Source of the DNA: a virus | Taxonomy: Duplodnaviria; Heunggongvirae; Uroviricota; Caudoviricetes | Virus record (IMG/VR): IMGVR_UViG_2778261277_000009 | Span: 1 to 37,740 of that record | DNA: 37,740 bases | Reading direction: 5' to 3' (one strand) | In this document: one piece after another, positions 10,300 through 31,780 of the stretch | Layout: every line of letters begins with the position of its first letter | Numbering within the stretch: the stretch's first letter is position 1 | Position numbers and translations under genes: made by a program | Notes under the pieces: model-generated | What the model saw: the letters and a program-made list of their open reading frames with translations, nothing else | Told to the model about the DNA's origin: nothing | Databases searched by the model: none

Positions 10300-11484
10300 T
10301 CAAGCCTTAAGAGGCTTTGTGTATGTTCGTGTAATCCAACCAGTAATAAACTCATCCCCTGATTTAACCTGCACGTAAAGCCATTGACGATCTTTCTTAT
10401 CTAAAATAGCAACAATTGTGTTTTTGCCAATGCATTCAATCACTTCACTATTTAAAGAAGGACTGACATGTAATCTTACGTTATCACCAGTTATAAACCT
10501 AAAACCATTGAGATCTTCCCACTTAATTTCTGTGTTTTCTTTAATTAATTTTTGTTTTGATATTGGTGCATCCTCATATAGGGATACAGAATATGATTCT
10601 GTCTTGTGTATTTGCGATAAGATTTGTTCTTTTGCATAATCAGCAATAGCGCCAAGCACCACTTCTGTTAAAAGCCACATAATAATAAACTGAAGCGGGT
10701 GAGGGAGCGACTTAAATGAATCAATGAACGTCGAACTGGATTTATTTAATCCTTTGTCTTGAACATCACTTTCGTTGTGAGATGTTTCAATAGCACCTTC
10801 GACATAAGCCTGTGCAATTGATGAAAGACTTTGCTCCATTATTTGATGTAATGAAGCCTTTTGCGCTAGGGTATATTGTTTTAATGATTCTTTTATTTCA
10901 TTGTTTAAATCTATCTTATGACTTACATTTTGTCGCAATTCATTAAGTATTGCTTGCATGTTATTTAAACCAGCTTGCTTATTAAGCATCTCGAACTGGT
11001 TTCGTAACGGCATAGCAATTTCTGCCTGCTTCCTTAGCATTTGAATGTATTTATTTGCATCATGCGGGGGATAAACCTTGGCCTGTTTCTGTAGAATTTC
11101 AAGAAATTCACGATGCTTGCTATTTATTCTTCTCAAGCTCGTCATGTTCGCAAGCTGTTTTTTAACAGAATCACTAAGTAACGATTGCAAATTCAATCTT
11201 GCTATTTGTTCTTGAGCTAGCCGCCCTATTCTTAACTGTTCTTGCAAGTTTGCCATATGTTCTCTATACGATGGAATGATTGCGTTTTTTTGCAGTTCTG
11301 CCAACTGTCTAACCAAATTATTAGAAGCATATTCTGATTTTAATAAATCACTTGCCGATGTATATCCTGGCATTTTGATTTTACTTAAATTATCACGCCA
11401 GGTAATATTTGAATCTCTATTATAGAGATCGCTTACTGAGCCAAGTGCAAGTTTTTTAATATCCTTCACTTTATTCACCGTCAT
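10300..11484 (-). CDS. coiled-coil membrane protein with C-terminal SH3b-like domain (function unknown)
   Basis: 394-aa ORF in a low-GC island; long Q/L/K-rich heptad region, one hydrophobic helix (FIIMWLLTEVVLGAIADYA), C-terminal segment ending GDEFITGWITRTYTK that resembles bacterial SH3 domains. Confidence 0.5.
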   Translation of the reverse strand: MTVNKVKDIKKLALGSVSDLYNRDSNITWRDNLSKIKMPGYTSASDLLKSEYASNNLVRQLAELQKNAIIPSYREHMANLQEQLRIGRLAQEQIARLNLQSLLSDSVKKQLANMTSLRRINSKHREFLEILQKQAKVYPPHDANKYIQMLRKQAEIAMPLRNQFEMLNKQAGLNNMQAILNELRQNVSHKIDLNNEIKESLKQYTLAQKASLHQIMEQSLSSIAQAYVEGAIETSHNESDVQDKGLNKSSSTFIDSFKSLPHPLQFIIMWLLTEVVLGAIADYAKEQILSQIHKTESYSVSLYEDAPISKQKLIKENTEIKWEDLNGFRFITGDNVRLHVSPSLNSEVIECIGKNTIVAILDKKDRQWLYVQVKSGDEFITGWITRTYTKPLKA

Positions 11485-11977
11485 CTTGCTTTAAACATCC
11501 ATCATTTTTAGCTTCCTTGTAAATACTTGAAATTCCATCAAGAGAGAATGATGTAATTCGACGCGATCCGATATATACATCCATGTTTTTTTCTTTTGTG
11601 GCTGACGCTGACTTCCAAAAAGAATACCATTCCCTACGATTTGGAGCAGTGTTTTGCGTACCAATATTAAAGCTATCCGGACCAACAATTAAGGTAATTA
11701 CATCAGCTTTACGAGAAATTGTGTCGCGTGTAGAAAAATCAGCATTCTCTTTCCCTCCACTTACATACAAATTTCTTCCAGCTATATGATCTTCGGAACC
11801 TTCCCTTGCTCCAGCATCACAAGAAAAGTTAATTGTATAACCATCGTCATTGGTTGCAGAGATTTCTCTCCACCCTTGCTCACCTCCTACCGTCCAAACG
11901 GTAGAACCTGCCATTGCTGATAATGGCAGAAAAGAGGACATTAATAAAAAGCTATACAATGACTTATATAATTTCAT
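11471..11977 (-). CDS. secreted/periplasmic protein with signal peptide (function unknown)
   Basis: 168-aa ORF; N-terminus MKLYKSLYSFLLMSSFLPLSAMA is a classic signal peptide; AAGGA SD 8 nt upstream; low GC. Confidence 0.5.
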   Translation of the reverse strand: MKLYKSLYSFLLMSSFLPLSAMAGSTVWTVGGEQGWREISATNDDGYTINFSCDAGAREGSEDHIAGRNLYVSGGKENADFSTRDTISRKADVITLIVGPDSFNIGTQNTAPNRREWYSFWKSASATKEKNMDVYIGSRRITSFSLDGISSIYKEAKNDGCLKQDDGE

Positions 11978-12065
11978 ATTTTTATCCTTTTTGTTTTAGA
12001 TATTATAGGCATAGTCCATATTGTTAGATCCACTATGCCCAGAGAATTTAATATTATTCATTAAA

Positions 12066-12557
12066 TTATGGAGCTACACCCGGCCCCCTGGCTCGTTCTT
12101 CAAGCGTACCCTGCACGTTTTGATGGCGCATTCCTGGGGCATTTCTGATTGAGTCAATGCCATTTCTTCCAACATCTTCTTTATTAACGGCATTGCTCGC
12201 CACCAGCACACCCCAGCTAGGGATAGCAAAATCAGGAGCGGTTTCGCATGCCTTTACCATATAATCGAAAGTGCTTCGATTGATCTCATTTGCATCGGGG
12301 TTTAATAGGCGAGAATATTGGTATTTAGCATTTGCGTTGGTTGAGACTTTATACAGTTCCTGCTGCACCATCGCTTCAGAAAGTTTAAGGCGCTTCATAT
12401 CTGACAGTAACTTCTTGCGCATGGATTCGTCTTCACTGACAGCAAATCCGTAAACGTGCCCAAGGTATTTCGTATAATCGGTACAAATCTCCTTTACGCT
12501 TGATGCTGCATTAACAGTCCCAGCCATAAATAATAACGGTAGTAATAGTTTTCTCAT
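12066..12557 (-). CDS. secreted protein with Sit-like C-terminal motif (candidate superinfection-exclusion factor)
   Basis: Start chosen at the ATG with a GGTGAGG SD (MRKLLLPLLFMAGTVNA signal peptide); C-terminal IDSIRNAPGMRHQNVQGTLEERARG matches two motifs near the Sit C-terminus. Confidence 0.5.
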   Translation of the reverse strand: MRKLLLPLLFMAGTVNAASSVKEICTDYTKYLGHVYGFAVSEDESMRKKLLSDMKRLKLSEAMVQQELYKVSTNANAKYQYSRLLNPDANEINRSTFDYMVKACETAPDFAIPSWGVLVASNAVNKEDVGRNGIDSIRNAPGMRHQNVQGTLEERARGPGVAP

Positions 12558-12653
12558 TATAACCTCACCTGCCTTATAACTCATTTAGGGTACATATTTT
12601 CGCCTTTAAAAAAAAGAGGTTATTAGATCCAATTGTGCATTTATTAAACAAAC

Positions 12654-12670
12654 AATGCTCTAATAAATTT
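12654..12670 (+). promoter_or_regulatory. C1 repressor operator (Op51-like) in the divergent region before c4/icd/ant
   Basis: AATGCTCTAATAAATTT, 16/17 match to the P1 C1 operator consensus ATTGCTCTAATAAATTT. Confidence 0.7.
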
Positions 12671-12842
12671 GTATTTTTAAGTCACGAATGCTATCTTTTC
12701 GCATCATATTGACCTTTTAATCGTTCAGGCTTATAGTTCCGCCGTCGTAGCAAATTCTGCGACCAGGTTTGACAGCCTGAATGATTGTGCGGACAACCGC
12801 AGATTTCCGATATTGCGGTATTTTTGTGTCCGTTAAACCGCG

Positions 12843-12945
12843 TTACGCCCAAATTATGGTGGGGCGTGATGGGGAGGCTTCGGCCTGCTGGTTTCACAAT
12901 CGCCAGTCTGTCAACCCTGTCACGTCCTGCCACCTGTTTGACAGC
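12843..12945 (+). ncRNA. c4: c4 antisense repressor RNA region (approximate boundaries)
   Basis: Several hairpins upstream of icd; one loop (UUCACAAUCG, 12890-12899) is complementary to GAUUGUGA at the icd ribosome-binding site (12968-12975). Position matches P1 c4. Confidence 0.4.
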
Positions 12946-12984
12946 GGGTAGCAGGTTGTTAAACCTGATTGTGAGGCCGTAACT

Positions 12985-13206
12985 ATGGTTAATGCCAATC
13001 CTTGCGCACGCCAAGAATTCATCTGGCGTTTCTATTCCTGTAAAAAACACCACTATCACTTCGTTATCGCAGCAACAGAAGACGAAGCACGCTCTCAATT
13101 GCCTGACGGCCCCTGCATTTTTACTGCCCGTTTTTCAACTAACTCGCGCAATTCACTTAGTTACTGGAGCCTCCCCTTCTCTGCCGACGTTCAGGGGGGT
13201 TTATGA
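12985..13206 (+). CDS. icd: Icd-like small protein
   Basis: 73-aa ORF whose stop overlaps the ant ATG (ATGA at 13203-13206); GAGG SD upstream. Confidence 0.55.
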   Translation: MVNANPCARQEFIWRFYSCKKHHYHFVIAATEDEARSQLPDGPCIFTARFSTNSRNSLSYWSLPFSADVQGGL

Positions 13207-14246
13207 AAAAACCTCTCGTCACCCGTAATGACATAGCCGAAGCGATCGCCCTGCATACTGCCTGTATGCCGACACGGGAGATCCCCGGCGCAATTGCCAA
13301 CTATTTCATGATAACCAGACGTTTTTATACCCGAACAGATAAGGCTGTGATCAACAAGCTACTGATAGCCGAGATCAGGGATTATTTGATTGAACAAGGA
13401 CGTCTACGTTACGCAACAGTGGCAGCAGAAATGAGAAAGGAGGCACATAGAATGACCGGTAATAATTTGAATGTTGAAAAAACAGCACCTGTTACGTCAG
13501 CTACGCCAGCACCAGCCGTGAATATCATCCCCAACACCGGAGACACAATCGACAGCCTGACACTGTTAAAGATGGTCAATGAAGCGCGTAAGTTATGTGG
13601 GGAACCAGAGGTTCGGAACAACAAATTCATCGAAAAAATACTCGACGAATTAGAAGGTGAGGACGGTTACACAAAAAGTGCAACCGTGCCGCCAGGTGGC
13701 GGTACGCCTATGGTTGTCATAACCATGACCTACAAACAAGCCCTGCGAGTCGCCGCACGCGAATCAAAAGCCGTCCGCCGTTTGCTGATCGACAAACTGG
13801 AAGAATTGCAGCAGGCAAACTCCCCTGCCCCATCGATCCCCCAAACATTACCAGAAGCTCTACGCCTGGCTGCCGAGTTGGCAGAACAGAAAATGCAGCT
13901 GGAACAACAGCTGGTGGCCGCAGCCCCTAAAGTCGATTTTGCCGACCGGGTATCAGTGGCCAATGGAATCCTGATCGGGAACTTTGCAAAGGTCGTTGGA
14001 CTTAAGCAAAACGCCCTTTTCTCATGGTTGCGCCAGAACGGCATTCTCATGGCTTTTGGTGCGCGCAAAAACGTACCGCGCCAACAGTACATCAACGCCG
14101 GGTATTTCACGGTGAAAGAAGTGGTGCTGGATGATGAAAATGGCTACCAGATACGGCTGACGCCCCAATTAACGGGTAAAGGCCAGCAGTGGTTAACTCG
14201 CAAGCTACTTGATGCTGGTTTGTTAAAACCAGTAGCAATAGGTTAA
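13203..14246 (+). CDS. ant1: antirepressor Ant (KilAC/ANT C-terminal domain)
   Basis: 347-aa ORF; C-terminal domain (LPEALRLAAELAEQK...GKGQQWL) is paralogous to the KilA C-terminus in the next operon. Confidence 0.8.
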   Translation: MKKPLVTRNDIAEAIALHTACMPTREIPGAIANYFMITRRFYTRTDKAVINKLLIAEIRDYLIEQGRLRYATVAAEMRKEAHRMTGNNLNVEKTAPVTSATPAPAVNIIPNTGDTIDSLTLLKMVNEARKLCGEPEVRNNKFIEKILDELEGEDGYTKSATVPPGGGTPMVVITMTYKQALRVAARESKAVRRLLIDKLEELQQANSPAPSIPQTLPEALRLAAELAEQKMQLEQQLVAAAPKVDFADRVSVANGILIGNFAKVVGLKQNALFSWLRQNGILMAFGARKNVPRQQYINAGYFTVKEVVLDDENGYQIRLTPQLTGKGQQWLTRKLLDAGLLKPVAIG

Positions 14247-16349: not shown

Positions 16350-17405
16350 ATGACTTATGCTGGCACACAAACAGCAGATAACGCCGGGGATACCATGAAA
16401 TCGTATGCTATTTGGAATAATAAAGGTGGCGTAGGAAAGACCTACTTATCTTTCGCTATGGCCTGTGAATACGCAAGGCAAAATCCAGAAAAGCGTATTA
16501 TTTTTGCAGATATGTGCCCGCAGGCTAACTTATCTGAAATATTGCTCGGCGGTAACGGTACTGGTGCTGCTAACCTCGCGAGCTTAATTCAACAACGAAA
16601 AACTGTCGGTGGGTACTTTGACAGAAGAACTCGCAGCCCCCACATGCTTACCGGTTCAGAAACAAGTTTCTTAATTCATGTCTCTGAAATTAACGGGCAT
16701 GTCCCTGACAATGTATTTTTGATTGCAGGCGACCCAAGCCTGGAAGTTCAGGCGCAAGTAATCAATCAGTTAAGCAGCGTAAACTTACCAGTTGACTCAT
16801 GGAAAAGCATCCACCTGTGGCTACGAGATTTGCTTGTTGCATGTGCACAACAACAAGGTATCGAAGAAACCATTTGCTTTATTGATTGCAACCCCAGTTT
16901 CTCTGCCTATACCGAACTATCACTGATAGCAGCAAATGCAATTATAATACCTTGCTCAAGTGATGGTTCTTCGGCTCGAGCAGTGGATAACCTAAGCCAG
17001 TTGGTTTATGGCGTTGGAGTACAAAACGATTATCGTTCTGTTAACTTTTACGATCGGTGTCAACAGTTTGGTCTAGCGGTTCCTGTCATTCATTCTCTAG
17101 TTTTTAATCGTTCGACAGAGTATGACAAACGAGCAAGTAAAGCGTTTTCGGCAATGTTCGACGAAATCAGGGATAGAGCTGAAAATCTGCGGACGAATAA
17201 ACCAACAGCGTTCCAAGGCGGAAATTTAAAAACGTTTACTGTGCCAGATAACCATTCCGTAGCTATAGTATCTTCCCATCTAGGAAGACCTCTATTTGAT
17301 ATAAAACCAGGCAGATATCAGATCCATGATACTGAGCCACAAATCAATAATGAACCATTAGAAAGATATGGTGCAGCAATCGAACGTCTTGTTCAGAGTT
17401 TATAG
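16350..17405 (+). CDS. orphan ParA/MinD-family ATPase (deviant Walker A), no partner ParB
   Basis: Walker A NNKGGVGKT, A' IFADMCPQ, Walker B CFIDCNPS; alternative start at 16395 (MKSYAIWNNKGGVGKT) with a GGGGA SD; lower GC than the core. Confidence 0.7.
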   Translation: MTYAGTQTADNAGDTMKSYAIWNNKGGVGKTYLSFAMACEYARQNPEKRIIFADMCPQANLSEILLGGNGTGAANLASLIQQRKTVGGYFDRRTRSPHMLTGSETSFLIHVSEINGHVPDNVFLIAGDPSLEVQAQVINQLSSVNLPVDSWKSIHLWLRDLLVACAQQQGIEETICFIDCNPSFSAYTELSLIAANAIIIPCSSDGSSARAVDNLSQLVYGVGVQNDYRSVNFYDRCQQFGLAVPVIHSLVFNRSTEYDKRASKAFSAMFDEIRDRAENLRTNKPTAFQGGNLKTFTVPDNHSVAIVSSHLGRPLFDIKPGRYQIHDTEPQINNEPLERYGAAIERLVQSL

Positions 17406-18819: not shown

Positions 18820-19329
18820 TTAATCCCACTCAATCCAGTTGTAGACGATACGAAGTGACGGGCGCACAGCGGCAGTCACATCTTCGGTACTAAAGTCGAT
18901 TGCATCACTGTAGATTTTGCAGTCCAACATTTCAATTGTTGTAGCAGCTTTTGTCACAGCGTTAACCCCGGAAGATTTGGATTCAGGGGTAGCAGCCATC
19001 GTGATATCAACATAGTCCTTCGCCGCAATGCGATCTTTAATGAACTGAAGAATATCGCCTTCGATAGTCTCCACGCACTGGACCTGGATTTCCCCAGAGT
19101 TTCGAATTGGACCGTGCTGGTTGAACTTCACACCATTCGGACCATAGTCCTCCACATCCTCGCGGGTCATTTCAGGAATTTGCGACGTGCGAACCAGTAC
19201 GCTGATATCTTCATGGCCTGCAAAAGTGAGCTGGAATTCAGAAGATACCAGTCGTTCGCCTTTGGCCGCGTTGGCAGTATAGCGGCCCTTAATAAATTTA
19301 CGGTTTCCCTTAGTGTTATTGTGCCCCAT
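18820..19329 (-). CDS. virion structural protein (tail tube-like candidate)
   Basis: 169-aa ORF, last gene of the late block; size and composition tube-like. Confidence 0.4.
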   Translation of the reverse strand: MGHNNTKGNRKFIKGRYTANAAKGERLVSSEFQLTFAGHEDISVLVRTSQIPEMTREDVEDYGPNGVKFNQHGPIRNSGEIQVQCVETIEGDILQFIKDRIAAKDYVDITMAATPESKSSGVNAVTKAATTIEMLDCKIYSDAIDFSTEDVTAAVRPSLRIVYNWIEWD

Positions 19330-19340
19330 ATAAAATCCTT

Positions 19341-19922
19341 TTACTGGAACGCCCGAACAATATCGGAGCTGTTATATATCGAAGAACCGGTCAACTGGAG
19401 GTTGACGGTGTTTTTCAGGAAATGCCCATTGCTGTCCCTGGGCGCATCGAGATCGAAACTTATGTCCTGGATAGCGACATCAATGATGTTGATCCGGCGA
19501 CCAATGTTTAGCGTCACACGCTCCGGGATTCGACCTCCAATACTGGCATCTTTAAGTTCCGGGCTAATCATCGCTGACAATGCGGCGATAGCTCCTGAAA
19601 CCTCCGTGAATGGATCAAACAAAGCGATGAAAGTTACTGGCAGCGTGAAAGTTGGCGGTGTTCCCCCCTCCCAAACCATTAAGCTGTTCCAACGGGCCAC
19701 CGACGTTGTTTCAGTACCAACCTGCGCAAAACCACTGAAGGCACCAGCAACAGACCCCATGGACATACCGGTAAACGGCGCTTCCCAATTCTGGGCCATG
19801 TTCATTGCTGCCCCCTGGCTGATATATCCGGTAACCTGGTACTGAGAGTTCGTTAAAGTAACTTTCAGAAATGGCGATACACCATCAGCCTGGCTGTAAA
19901 CCCCATAAGGTATAGGTGCCAT
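19341..19922 (-). CDS. virion morphogenetic protein
   Basis: 193-aa ORF, tightly spaced in the late operon. Confidence 0.4.
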   Translation of the reverse strand: MAPIPYGVYSQADGVSPFLKVTLTNSQYQVTGYISQGAAMNMAQNWEAPFTGMSMGSVAGAFSGFAQVGTETTSVARWNSLMVWEGGTPPTFTLPVTFIALFDPFTEVSGAIAALSAMISPELKDASIGGRIPERVTLNIGRRINIIDVAIQDISFDLDAPRDSNGHFLKNTVNLQLTGSSIYNSSDIVRAFQ

Positions 19923-30882: not shown

Positions 30883-31780
30883 GCACTGGAAAAACATTAC
30901 TATTTATAAACTTTCTCGTGAGGCGGATCTGACCGACTTAGAAGATAAAAAGAAAATGATCCTTTTCACGCCATGCGGTAGTCAGGATATGGCCAAGTTC
31001 GGTTTTGTATCTCCATTTGGTGATAATTCCGAAGTTATCGCTATGCATGGAAATGGTTTTATCCTTGTTGAAGCAAAGCGCGAAACAAAAATTCTTCCCC
31101 CGCCGGTTATCCAGCGAGCTATTCAAGAAAAAATTGAAAAACTTGAGCAAGAACAAGCGCGTAAACTGAAGAAAACAGAGAAGGACTCCCTGAAAGACGA
31201 AGTTCTGCATTCTCTTCTGCCACGAGCTTTTTCAAAGTTTTCTGTTATCCAGGCGATCTACGACGGTTCAACTAAACGTATCTATATCAATGCCAGCGCG
31301 CGGCAGGCAGAGGATATGCTCGCGCTTATGCGTAAGTCTCTGGGTTCTCTTCCTGTTGTTCCCCTGAGTGTTGAAAATCCCATTGAATTAACGCTGACCG
31401 ACTGGGTACGTGATGCTCGTGCTCCACAGGGATTTCAAATGGGGGATGCGGCAGAACTTAAGGCAGTGCTTGAGGATGGCGGTATCGCCCGAGTGAAAAA
31501 GCAGGATTTGGGAAGCGATGAAATTTCCACACACCTGGAAGCTGGCAAGCTCGTCACAAAGTTGGCACTCGACTGGCAGAACCGCATTAAATTTACACTG
31601 GACCATAACTTCAGCCTTACCAGCGTCAAATTTGCGGATGAATTGCTTGAGCAGAACTCTGATATTGATAGTGAAGATGTAGCGCAGCGACTGGACGCAG
31701 ATTTCTTCCTGTTAACCAGTGAAATTTCGTGCCTGGTTGATGCTCTGGTAAATGCCCTGGGCGGAGAGGCTAAGCAGTGA
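30875..31780 (+). CDS. hrdC: RdgC-family recombination-associated protein
   Basis: 301 aa; N-terminus [16 protein letters not shown]...[15 protein letters not shown] and ...[28 protein letters not shown] match the E. coli RdgC pattern as recalled from memory. Confidence 0.85.

What the first reader, a model, noticed from the sequence alone, without database searches (positions are those of the whole stretch)
10300..12584. Low-GC three-gene envelope cassette at the sim position: two signal-peptide proteins plus a coiled-coil membrane protein with an SH3b-like domain
Between the tail-gene block and the ImmI operator lies a 2.3-kb island of clearly lower GC than the flanking core. Its three co-oriented genes all encode envelope-targeted products. 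Two have classic cleavable signal peptides (168 aa and about 163 aa). The third is a 394-aa protein with a long heptad-repeat region, one TM helix and a C-terminal SH3b-like domain. In P1 this slot holds the poorly characterised sim superinfection-exclusion genes. The composition and domain content suggest an exchangeable envelope-acting exclusion/defence module, possibly under C1 control via the operator at 12654.
Basis: partly seen in the sequence, partly recalled or inferred. Interest (0 to 1): 0.65.

Follow-up and report, generated by a model that had tools for sequence, protein, structure and literature searches.

The report
Alternative envelope-gene cassette at P1 sim slot
In this P1-like phage-plasmid the slot that holds the sim exclusion genes in phage P1 carries three different, uncharacterised genes for cell-envelope proteins, and one of them shares a short conserved motif with the phage's own DNA-injection (tape-measure) protein, which gives a testable idea of how it might block incoming phages.

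Summary
Three co-oriented minus-strand genes (394, 168 and 172/163 aa) lie in the deepest GC trough of the window, between the tail late promoter LPsit and the C1 operator Oc4.

This is not canonical P1 SimABC: nothing resembles SimC or SimB. Gene 3 is a SimA-family secreted protein with a complete conserved core. P1's 52-aa SimA looks like a truncated stub of it. Gene 2 belongs to the YfjT family (PF27224), periplasmic proteins of unknown function. Gene 1 has a fast-evolving helical N-terminal region, one hydrophobic helix and a near-invariant SH3_3 domain.

The three are not an obligate system. The SH3 gene occurs alone elsewhere, and the SimA+YfjT pair occurs without it, including in the distant Cronobacter phage JK004.

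Two new leads emerged. The SimA-family tail shares a significant motif with the tape-measure/transglycosylase protein Sit. A C1-operator-like site stays linked to the SimA-family gene in JK004, where ImmI is not adjacent.

That this slot is variable and low in GC is already published. An exclusion role at DNA entry is the likeliest function, but it is untested. The claimed long heptad repeat is not statistically supported.

The parts
10177..10195 (-). LPsit late promoter (-22 box AAATGACAA, -10 TAGAAT) of the pmgC-tub-pmgB-sit tail operon; conserved left border of the variable slot
   Evidence: It is the only zero-mismatch match to the P1 LPsit pattern in the window. Position mapped from the P1 annotation.
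10198..10206 (.). Left recombination breakpoint shared with P1, P7 and Ro157c2YLVW
   Evidence: blastn homology to P1, P7 and Ro157c2 ends at 10198, 10200 and 10206 respectively.
10300..11484 (-). Gene 1: 394-aa 'SH3 domain-containing protein' (PHROG 7086). It has a variable helical N-terminal region (aa 1-250), one hydrophobic helix and a C-terminal SH3_3 domain. Its start overlaps the end of gene 2 by 14 nt (PGAP's alternative start lies 2 nt after that stop).
10633..10701 (-). Predicted transmembrane helix of gene 1 (aa 262-284, PLQFIIMWLLTEVVLGAIADYA)
   Evidence: KD19 maximum is 1.83. The helix is consistently hydrophobic across the family and is a helix in the model, with pLDDT about 65.
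10321..10485 (-). SH3_3 (bacterial SH3) domain of gene 1 (aa 334-388), near-invariant across the family
   Evidence: Pfam gives 26.0 bits here, and 26/26 members match with best E 2.3e-9. It also matches the C-terminus of a phage amidase PHROG (phrog_1794, E 4e-4).
11471..11977 (-). Gene 2: 168-aa secreted YfjT-family protein (PF27224; PHROG 3429). Signal peptide ...LSAMA|GS; conserved W28, C53 and C161.
   Evidence: pLDDT 83.7; family name; K-12 YfjT, hhalign probability 99.4%
11996..12051 (.). Intergenic inverted repeat (core GGCATAGT/ACTATGCC, 16-nt loop). On the coding strand a perfect TATAAT follows, about 25 nt before the gene 2 start. Role unknown.
   Evidence: I5
12066..12557 (-). Gene 3: 163-aa SimA-family secreted protein (172 aa if started at 12584). 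It has a signal peptide (VNA|A) and the complete conserved core (C25...C104, CTDY..YLGH, PD..IPSW). The family's variable C-terminal tail is cut short at the Ro157c2 breakpoint.
   Evidence: (PHROG 3933)
12072..12197 (-). Sit-like motif in the SimA-family protein (aa 121-162: ...RNAPGMRHQNVQGTLEERARGPGVA)
   Evidence: tblastn E 2e-6. Smith-Waterman 90 against shuffles 38+-5.7, z 9.2, 0/500. Motif table; PHROG 2533 hit.
12078..12078 (.). Right breakpoint relative to Ro157c2YLVW (inside the 3' end of gene 3)
12418..12418 (.). Right breakpoint relative to P1, inside gene 3. P1 simA diverges here and stops 9 codons later.
12654..12670 (+). C1 operator Oc4 (AATGCTCTAATAAATTT). The right breakpoint relative to P7 (12656) lies inside it.
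4581..7979 (-). sit: 1132-aa tape-measure / lytic transglycosylase protein. It lies outside the finding but shares the motif with gene 3.
5085..5198 (-). Sit motif copy 1 (aa 928-965, ...MNGRGMRREVVQGTLEERARGKGTA), just after the SLT domain
4926..4967 (-). Sit motif copy 2 (partial: FDKLRNSPGMRKNN, aa ~1005-1018)

Best explanation
The region is the accessory ('moron') slot of a P1-like phage-plasmid, between the tail late promoter LPsit and the C1 operator Oc4. In P1 the same slot holds simCBA.

Here the slot is a mosaic of three genes that are distributed independently of one another. All three encode envelope proteins.
1. A SimA-family periplasmic protein with the full conserved core. P1's 52-aa SimA appears to be a truncated remnant of this family.
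2. A YfjT-family periplasmic beta-rich protein.
3. A single-pass membrane protein whose near-invariant helix + SH3_3 module most likely places a peptidoglycan-binding-type domain in the periplasm, and whose N-terminal about 250 residues evolve fast.

The SimA + YfjT pair is probably the old content of the slot. The SH3 gene is an add-on next to pmgC.

Most likely function (inferred, not shown): these proteins act in the envelope to interfere with entry of other phages, that is, superinfection exclusion at or after peptidoglycan penetration and DNA injection, as Sim does in P1.

The most specific step I propose concerns the SimA-family protein. Its tail copies a conserved segment of the injected tape-measure/transglycosylase Sit. 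It could therefore compete with, or dock onto, incoming Sit in the periplasm, working like T4 Spackle or the tape-measure-targeting exclusion proteins.

A C1 operator linked to its 5' side suggests expression early after infection or induction rather than constitutively in the lysogen.

Shown: anatomy, homologies, mosaicism, selection, the motif and the operator linkage. Inferred: localisation, topology, regulation and every functional step.
For: Slot identity and mosaicism:
- Flanks are 96-97% identical to P1 and P7, with nested breakpoints.
- Five architectures were seen.
- PLSDB counts: SimC 141 records, P7 Upf50.5 205, YfjT family 177, SH3 64, SimA N-terminus 267, of which 126 are full-length.

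Envelope targeting: every one of 13 distinct products of the slot architectures has a signal peptide, a lipobox or TM segments. Cysteine pairs are conserved.

Real, selected genes: dN/dS 0.06-0.17 for the secreted proteins. The SH3 protein's N-terminal part is faster and more deeply diverged than its C-terminal part.

Independence of the genes.

Old SimA+YfjT pair: it lies at the same position upstream of pmgC in Cronobacter phage JK004, whose Sit is about 50% identical.

Sit motif:
- tblastn E 2e-6, or 1e-7 with Ro gp35.
- z = 9.2 against shuffles.
- It is conserved across the SimA family and in JK004 Sit.
- Only 37/51 nt are identical, so the motif is maintained at the protein level.

Operator linkage in JK004 without ImmI.

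Precedent: exclusion proteins that block injection, with escape mapping to the tape-measure protein (PMC10883804). sim is non-essential in P1 (PMC10695390).

YfjT-family genes also occur in large Serratia, Klebsiella and Pectobacterium phages of 270-307 kb. So the family is carried by other phages too.
Against: - No experiment bears on function.
- No PADLOC defence model matches.
- Sharing a slot with sim does not imply the same function.
- P1's exclusion determinant is SimC, which is absent here, and P1's own SimA lacks the motif.
- In JK004 the SimA-family protein keeps only the N-x-x-G-M-R part of the motif.
- Topology of the SH3 protein is unresolved. Flank charges are balanced, or slightly more positive on the C-terminal side.
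- If C1 represses the cassette, it would not protect a stable lysogen.
- Promoter scans found no strong sigma-70 promoter upstream of gene 3.
Confidence: 0.45

Rival explanations
1. These are lysogenic-conversion or host-fitness morons. The three envelope proteins would change host envelope physiology (stress tolerance, adhesion, serum or bile resistance), as lambda bor and lom do, and would have nothing to do with phages.
For: - The alternative P7-type allele encodes a glycine-zipper lipoprotein and a DUF5384 protein that its record describes as similar to E. coli K-12 envelope proteins.
- YfjT has a chromosomal cryptic-prophage homologue in K-12 that has been kept.
- One viral family member is annotated 'putative adhesin'.
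- There are no defence-database hits.
Against: - The Sit-like motif in the SimA family and the operator linkage both point to the phage's own biology.
- The YfjT family also occurs in large (270-307 kb) phage genomes.
- The slot holds a proven exclusion function in P1.
Confidence: 0.2
2. These are accessory functions of the phage's own lytic cycle. The proteins would be made early or late in the envelope of the infected cell, to help penetration or lysis, to tune lysis timing, or to protect the producing cell. The SH3 domain would tether something to peptidoglycan, and SimA would act as a partner or regulator of the resident Sit transglycosylase.
For: - The genes are co-oriented with the tail operon and lie directly upstream of it. 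In JK004 the SimA+YfjT pair is embedded between tail-gene blocks.
- The SH3 domain resembles the C-terminus of phage amidase endolysins (phrog_1794).
- An operator upstream suggests expression on induction.
- The YfjT family occurs in large phage genomes.
Against: - The slot content is dispensable and replaced wholesale among otherwise near-identical phages.
- sim is non-essential by CRISPRi.
- There is no late (Lpa-type) promoter inside the cassette.
- Tail assembly is cytoplasmic, whereas these proteins carry export signals.
Confidence: 0.2
3. This is one obligate three-component defence system, the first reader's 'module', in which the three proteins work together.
For: - The three genes are co-oriented and tightly packed. 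Genes 1 and 2 overlap by 14 nt.
- The same trio occurs in about 35 plasmids and about 24 complete E. coli genomes.
- In P1-like loci the SH3 gene is always preceded by a YfjT-family gene.
Against: - The SH3 gene is a lone gene in Citrobacter and Yersinia elements.
- The SimA+YfjT pair exists without SH3 in Ro157c2 and JK004.
- L026-type alleles have YfjT-like + SH3 without SimA.
- The three genes differ in GC and GC3 and in divergence pattern.
Confidence: 0.05
4. This is ordinary P1 content, i.e. canonical SimA/SimB/SimC.
For: Same position. The first 51 residues of gene 3 are 92% identical to P1 SimA. Some records annotate gene 3 as 'simA domain protein'.
Against: - There is no similarity of any of the three proteins to SimC or SimB.
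- P1-like phage records cover only 35-51% of the 9500-13300 stretch, all of it in the flanks.
- The 394-aa protein has no match in 50,697 phage records.
Confidence: 0.01

Closest known systems
Phage P1 sim (superimmunity) locus, simC-simB-simA
   Same: It occupies exactly the same slot between pmgC/LPsit and Oc4, with the same orientation and the same low GC (P1 slot 0.336, here 0.372), and its products carry signal peptides. Gene 3 shares its signal peptide and first about 40 mature residues with SimA. From my own knowledge (Kliem & Dreiseikelmann 1989; Maillou & Dreiseikelmann 1990), Sim blocks P1 after adsorption and before DNA reaches the cytoplasm, and SimC is processed as an exported protein.
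   Different: There is no homologue of SimC, the determinant, or of SimB. P1 SimA is only a 52-aa stub that ends inside the conserved core of the family found here, and it lacks the Sit-like motif.
E. coli K-12 YfjT (b2637, cryptic prophage CP4-57; Pfam PF27224)
   Same: Gene 2 is a member of this family: BLASTP E 2e-6, hhalign probability 99.4% and E 1.5e-21. It has the same size, a signal peptide, the conserved tryptophan and two cysteines. Both are prophage-borne.
   Different: Identity is only 27%. K-12 yfjT follows the lipoprotein gene yfjS, which is unrelated to SimA. YfjT itself has no known function, so membership gives no mechanism.
T4 Spackle (Sp) and Imm: early superinfection-exclusion proteins
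   Same: This is a works-like comparison only. Spackle is a small signal-peptide-bearing periplasmic protein that acts on the tail-borne cell-wall-degrading enzyme of an incoming phage (own knowledge: Spackle inhibits the gp5 lysozyme). Here Sit carries an SLT transglycosylase domain, and the shared motif lies just after it. Possible early expression under repressor control parallels T4 early genes.
   Different: There is no sequence similarity to any PDB chain.
Exclusion proteins whose block is overcome through the tape-measure protein: HK97 gp15, TP-J34 Ltp, Tuc2009 Sie2009
   Same: They are prophage morons next to tail genes. They are membrane or lipoproteins that block DNA injection, and escape maps to the tape-measure protein or region (PMC10883804). 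A link to the tape-measure protein is suggested here by the shared motif.
   Different: Those act on siphoviruses and have no reported sequence mimicry of the tape-measure protein. P1 is a myovirus. No homology was tested or found.
Phage P7 slot allele (upf50.5 lipoprotein + upf50.0 DUF5384) and the Ro157c2YLVW allele (gp35 + gp34)
   Same: These are alternative occupants of the same slot, and all are exported proteins. Ro157c2 gp35 is 96% identical to gene 3 over 161 aa, and gp34 is a YfjT-family protein 28% identical to gene 2.
   Different: The P7 genes are unrelated to all three genes here. Ro157c2 lacks the SH3 gene, and its gp35 keeps a 54-aa helical tail that is missing here.
Bacterial SH3 (SH3_3, PF08239) cell-wall-binding domains of endolysins and amidases
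   Same: The C-terminal 55 residues match SH3_3, and they also match the C-terminus of a phage amidase family.
   Different: There is no catalytic domain. The domain is fused to a membrane helix and a long variable helical region. Binding to peptidoglycan and periplasmic location are inferred only.

Membership tests
P1 SimABC superimmunity locus | Located between pmgC/LPsit and the Oc4 operator of ImmI, transcribed towards the tail operon | tested here: met
   Flanks are 96-97% identical to P1. Breakpoints lie at ~10198 and 12418. C4 RNA and its targets lie just beyond.
P1 SimABC superimmunity locus | Encodes a SimC homologue (the exclusion determinant) | tested here: not met
   BLASTP of all three proteins against SimC gives no hit better than E 8.
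P1 SimABC superimmunity locus | Encodes a SimB homologue | tested here: not met
   The best BLASTP E-value is 1.5.
P1 SimABC superimmunity locus | Encodes a SimA homologue | tested here: met
   Gene 3 aa 1-51 is 92% identical to P1 SimA aa 1-51 (E 3e-33), but P1 SimA is a truncated form of the longer family.
P1 SimABC superimmunity locus | Confers exclusion of superinfecting P1 after adsorption | not testable with these tools
   Needs plating and DNA-entry assays.
YfjT family (Pfam PF27224) | Significant match to the family profile or founding member | tested here: met
   Precomputed PF27224 is recorded on the 99%-identical cluster representative, and the family name comes. hhalign of the family alignment against K-12 YfjT gives probability 99.4%, E 1.5e-21. 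The model is not in the local Pfam copy.
YfjT family (Pfam PF27224) | About 150-aa secreted protein with conserved Trp and Cys pair | tested here: met
   Alignment A2 shows the signal peptide, W28, C53 and C161. The beta-rich model has pLDDT 83.7.
Bacterial SH3 domain (SH3_3, PF08239) | Score at or above Pfam's gathering cut-off (27 bits) | tested here: inconclusive
   The window copy scores 26.0 bits, E 1.1e-5. All 26 family members match at E<=0.01, best 2.3e-9. Precomputed PF08239 is listed for most homologues.
   The best 28-residue window has contrast 0.65, and 24% of shuffles reach it (crude test). Helices are predicted only at pLDDT < 50.
Known anti-phage defence systems (PADLOC-DB v2) | Match to any defence-protein model | tested here: not met
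   There are no hits below E 0.1 for any of the three proteins.
PTP-like phytase (PF14566) | Score above the gathering cut-off, and the catalytic HCxxGxxR motif | tested here: not met
   The score is 25.2-25.4 bits against a cut-off of 27. Only profile positions 47-132 of 158 are matched. Only 11/19 members match, all weakly, and no CX5R motif is present in the sequence.
Tape-measure-targeting superinfection exclusion proteins (HK97 gp15 / Ltp type) | Blocks DNA injection, and escape mutations map to the tape-measure protein | not testable with these tools
   Only an indirect link exists: the motif shared between gene 3 and Sit.
T4 Spackle-like inhibitors of tail lysins | Sequence or structural similarity to Spackle; inhibition of the tail-borne muralytic enzyme | tested here: not met
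   Sequence only: no PDB chain matches gene 3 or its family profile at E<=1 or E<=10, apart from a spurious repeat protein. Structure and activity were not tested.

The most novel reading that the evidence does not exclude
SimA-family proteins are periplasmic mimics of a conserved segment (N-x-x-G-M-R...QGTLEERARG) of the injected tape-measure/transglycosylase Sit. They would be switched on from a C1-controlled promoter early after infection or induction. They would block entry of further P1-like phages by competing with incoming Sit, or by docking onto it or its SLT domain. That would be a Spackle-like exclusion principle based on self-mimicry. It would also mean that the textbook P1 'simA' is a dead stump of the slot's original exclusion gene. 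The YfjT-like and SH3 proteins would be further, independent envelope barriers stacked in the same hot spot.
Probability: 0.2. Interest if true: 0.7.

Novelty: new variant of a known kind. Interest (0 to 1): 0.45.

Why it matters
How Sim-type exclusion works in P1-like phages has never been explained, and the alternative occupants of the sim slot are annotated only as hypothetical proteins.

Roughly a quarter to a third of P1-like phage-plasmids in PLSDB carry SimA-core and/or YfjT-type genes there, and 64 records carry the SH3 gene.

P1-like phage-plasmids are common in clinical and farm Enterobacteriaceae and spread resistance genes. What controls which of them can enter a cell therefore matters for their epidemiology and for P1-based tools.

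The shared SimA-Sit motif turns a vague 'envelope cassette' into a concrete, cheap experiment: express, mutate the motif, select escapers and see whether they map to sit.

The work also gives a first context for the uncharacterised E. coli y-gene family YfjT, and it corrects the view of P1 simA as a complete gene.

Tried and rejected
- Canonical SimABC: rejected.
- Known defence systems: no PADLOC hit.
- PTP-like phytase for gene 3: sub-threshold, partial profile, no catalytic motif.
- Weak tail-fibre-assembly or chaperone hits in the N-terminus of gene 1 (E 0.009-0.05): treated as helical-bias noise.
- Structure of the 394-aa protein: mean pLDDT 43.5, unusable for fold search.
- PDB sequence and profile searches for all three proteins and for the helix+SH3 module: empty.
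- Late-promoter control of the cassette: only LPsit itself matches.
- Heptad or coiled-coil region: not significant.
- Topology from flank charges: inconclusive.
- A second 'YfjT' hit at window 30908-31078: antisense to a long ORF in an F/L-rich frame, so spurious.
- Phage D6: different synteny, uninformative.
- The Citrobacter plasmid carrying the lone SH3 gene: no megablast match to any phage record, so the element type was not named.
- The P1 genome paper (PMC523184) is not held. Statements on Sim biology therefore rest on record annotations and my own knowledge.
- Other slot proteins (SimB, SimC, P7 genes, YfjT-like, SH3): no local similarity to virion proteins of the window.


Full report
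OBSERVATION

The window is a P1-like (Punavirus) phage-plasmid. Stretch 9500-13300 matches P1, P7 and relatives at 95-98% identity, but only in its flanks: 35-51% of the query is covered.

Three minus-strand ORFs lie at 10300-11484 (394 aa), 11471-11977 (168 aa) and 12066-12584 (172 aa). The likelier start of the third is M10 at 12557, which follows AGGTGAGG and gives 163 aa. PGAP annotates it that way in sister plasmids.

GC of the finding is 0.374, against 0.464 ± 0.031 for all windows of that size. No non-overlapping window is as low. GC3 is 0.29, 0.27 and 0.42 for the three genes, against 0.47-0.50 for pmgC and tub.

C4 RNA and its a1b1 targets follow at 12731-12937, and ant1 and kilA come after them. 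On the other side, the late promoter LPsit lies at 10177-10195, followed by pmgC, tub, pmgB and sit.

All three ORFs are real genes. Among five or six natural alleles, dN/dS is 0.06-0.17 for the 168-aa and 163-aa proteins. For the 394-aa protein it is 0.1-0.4 in residues 251-394 and 0.3-0.8 in residues 1-250.

THE SLOT IS POLYMORPHIC AND MOSAIC

P1 has simC-simB-simA here. P7 has upf50.0 (DUF5384) and upf50.5 (a lipoprotein). Ro157c2YLVW has gp34 and gp35.

Homology to all three phages stops on the left at 10198-10206, immediately upstream of the LPsit -22 box. On the right it resumes at 12656 for P7 (inside the operator), at 12418 for P1 (inside gene 3) and at 12078 for Ro157c2 (in the 3' end of gene 3).

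Further architectures exist:
- SimA(212 aa) + a 116-aa polytopic membrane protein + a YfjT-like 158-aa protein + SH3(344 aa) (L004).
- The same without SimA (L026 type).
- The trio with a 53%-identical SH3 allele (L005).

Every one of the 13 distinct products of these architectures has a signal peptide, a lipobox or transmembrane segments.

PLSDB counts are as follows:
- SimC: 141 records.
- P7 Upf50.5: 205.
- YfjT family: 177.
- The SH3 protein: 64.
- SimA N-terminus: 267, of which 126 cover at least 80% of the 163-aa protein.

The part of the cassette unique to this architecture occurs in 70 of 5,426 complete E. coli genomes, 24 of them with at least 80% of it. Seventy of the 71 places are on plasmids.

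The variability and low GC of the sim region are already in the literature (PMC9603915, PMC6906374), and sim is non-essential in P1 (PMC10695390).

GENE 3: SimA FAMILY

Residues 1-51 are 92% identical to P1 SimA (52 aa), and residues 10-170 are 96% identical to Ro157c2 gp35 (215 aa).

The family alignment shows a signal peptide and a strongly conserved core of about 120 residues. Its invariant features are C25, C104, CTDY..YLGH and PD..IPSW. The core is followed by variable tails.

P1 SimA diverges at the P1 breakpoint and stops nine codons later, inside this core. It therefore looks like a remnant left when simB-simC replaced the distal part of an ancestral gene.

The copy in the window has the whole core and loses only the tail. 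This truncated form is itself conserved under purifying selection.

The Pfam PTP-like phytase similarity is sub-threshold and partial, and the family lacks the catalytic motif. No PDB sequence or profile match exists.

A MOTIF SHARED WITH THE TAPE-MEASURE PROTEIN

Residues 121-162 of gene 3 (…RNAPGMRHQNVQGTLEERARGPGVA) align with Sit residues 928-965 (…MNGRGMRREVVQGTLEERARGKGTA; window 5198-5085). Identity is 50% over 42 residues, with tblastn E 2e-6. Ro157c2 gp35 gives E 1e-7.

The Smith-Waterman score is 90, against 38 ± 5.7 for 500 shuffles (z 9.2, none reach it).

Sit has a second, partial copy (RNSPGMRKNN, about aa 1005-1018). Both copies lie after its SLT transglycosylase domain (AFQIT at aa 796).

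The 51-nt core is only 37/51 identical at the DNA level. So this is not a recent gene conversion; the peptide is maintained in both genes.

N-[AS]-[PR]-G-M-R-[HQ]-Q is present in nearly all SimA-family members. Their tails come in two flavours that parallel the two Sit copies. Sit of the distant Cronobacter phage JK004 keeps copy 1.

The PHROG scan had independently hit a 1130-position profile at positions 927-963. No other slot protein shows such similarity to a virion protein.

GENE 2: YfjT FAMILY

Close homologues are few. An exhaustive phmmer search of 1.84 billion representatives finds only 21, mostly secreted proteins of about 150 aa.

The precomputed family PF27224 is named YfjT. K-12 YfjT, from cryptic prophage CP4-57, matches at BLASTP E 2e-6, and the family profile matches it at 99.4% probability.

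YfjT is uncharacterised in the literature. Family members also occur in Ro157c2, in JK004 and in Serratia, Klebsiella and Pectobacterium phages of 270-307 kb.

GENE 1: SH3 PROTEIN

The family (PHROG 7086) is confined to Enterobacteriaceae elements of about 90-100 kb. It has no match in 50,697 phage records.

The alignment shows three parts:
- An indel- and repeat-rich N-terminal region, including 19-aa tandem repeats in Citrobacter werkmanii.
- A consistently hydrophobic helix.
- A near-invariant linker plus SH3 domain.

SH3_3 matches all 26 members, and the domain also resembles the C-terminus of a phage amidase family.

The structure model is poor (pLDDT 43.5). The heptad claim is not supported, and flank charges do not settle the topology. 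N-in/C-out is favoured only because a 260-residue N-terminal region without a signal peptide is unlikely to be exported; that is an inference.

In Citrobacter and Yersinia elements the gene stands alone among unrelated genes (HNH, VRR-NUC, SNF2). It therefore does not need the other two.

DEEP CONSERVATION AND REGULATION

In Cronobacter phage JK004 (Sit about 50%, PmgC 75% and Tub 81% identical), the position upstream of pmgC holds a SimA-family gene (80% identical) followed by a YfjT-family gene. The upstream neighbours are tail genes homologous to window 18823-19907, not ImmI.

Even so, the only C1-operator-like site in that 16-kb locus lies in the 133-nt gap upstream of the SimA-family gene. 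The site is ATTGCTCTAATAAAAAA, with the 13-nt core exact. It comes directly after the terminator of the preceding tail gene, in the same relative orientation as Oc4 in the window. No C4 RNA is present.

This makes C1 control of the SimA-family gene plausible. It would mean expression early after infection or induction, but it was not tested.

No Lpa-type late promoter lies inside the cassette. Sigma-70 scans are unremarkable. A perfect TATAAT preceded by an inverted repeat lies upstream of gene 2.

INTERPRETATION

Anatomy, family assignments, mosaicism, selection, the Sit motif and the operator linkage are shown. Localisation, topology, regulation and function are inferred.

The best-supported reading is a hot spot that stacks independent envelope proteins acting on phage entry. 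The reasons are these:
- The slot holds the proven exclusion function of P1.
- Every allele encodes exported proteins.
- One protein copies part of the injected Sit protein.
- The SH3 protein has a fast-evolving region.
- Precedent exists for exclusion proteins whose block is overcome by tape-measure changes (PMC10883804).

I put this at about 0.45. Host-fitness conversion and a role in the phage's own lytic cycle stand at about 0.2 each. An obligate three-gene system is unlikely (0.05), and canonical SimABC is refuted.

NOVELTY

The slot's variability is known, and the genes are annotated as hypothetical, 'SH3 domain-containing' or 'simA domain' proteins in dozens of records. To my knowledge and in the searched literature, three things are new:
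- P1 simA read as a stub of a larger conserved family.
- The SimA-Sit motif.
- The operator linkage in JK004.

This is a new variant of a known kind (prophage envelope/exclusion morons), of moderate interest and with a concrete experimental handle.

Noticed in passing
window 12418-12584; L002 (P1) 3482-3640: P1 simA (52 aa) equals the signal peptide plus about the first 40 mature residues of a 160-250-aa conserved family, and it ends inside that family's core. It looks like a remnant created when simB-simC replaced the rest of the gene.
   Followed up: yes
window 5085-5198 and 4926-4967 (sit) vs 12072-12197 (gene 3): A motif (N-x-x-G-M-R...QGTLEERARG) is shared between the tape-measure/transglycosylase Sit and SimA-family proteins. 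The match is statistically significant and conserved in a distant phage.
   Followed up: partly
L044 (Cronobacter phage JK004) 2918-2961: A strong terminator after tail gene g15 is followed at once by a C1-operator-like site upstream of the SimA-family gene g14. No ImmI genes or C4 RNA are nearby.
   Followed up: partly
window 12620-12631 and 12021-12032: A 12-nt direct repeat (TGGATCTAATAA / TGGATCTAACAA on the coding strand) lies upstream of both gene 3 and gene 2. The first copy contains the -10 of the promoter predicted for simA in the P1 record. It could be a shared promoter element or a recombination microhomology.
   Followed up: no
window 11996-12051: An inverted repeat (GGCATAGT...ACTATGCC) is followed by a perfect TATAAT in the gap between genes 3 and 2, right next to the Ro157c2 breakpoint.
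   Followed up: no
window ~16800-17400: A second low-GC island (1-kb windows at 0.38-0.40). It is probably the rlfA/rlfB variable region known from P1-like elements.
   Followed up: no
window 12656: The P7 homology breakpoint falls inside the C1 operator, so the operator itself marks a module junction.
   Followed up: partly
L026-L031, L038 (IMG/VR P1-like contigs): A slot architecture without any SimA-family gene: a 116-aa polytopic membrane protein + a YfjT-like 158-aa protein + a 344-aa SH3 protein.
   Followed up: partly
L042 (DXHF01000172.1, 'Candidatus Paenibacillus intestinavium' MAG, 2.8 kb): A P1-like SimA/YfjT/SH3/pmgC segment sits in a Firmicute MAG. This is almost certainly binning contamination.
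   Followed up: no
NZ_CP015229.1 (E. coli 06-00048 chromosome) ~1,824,265-1,825,178: The only chromosomal copy of the SH3 gene among 5,426 complete E. coli genomes. The same strain also has it on a 136-kb plasmid, so this may be an integrated P1-like element.
   Followed up: no
L013/L014 (metagenome contigs): Two YfjT-family genes in tandem, so the family also expands by local duplication.
   Followed up: no
window 30908-31078 (-): K-12 YfjT gives a tblastn hit (E 4e-4) here, but it is antisense to a 339-aa plus-strand ORF in an F/L-rich frame. Judged spurious.
   Followed up: yes
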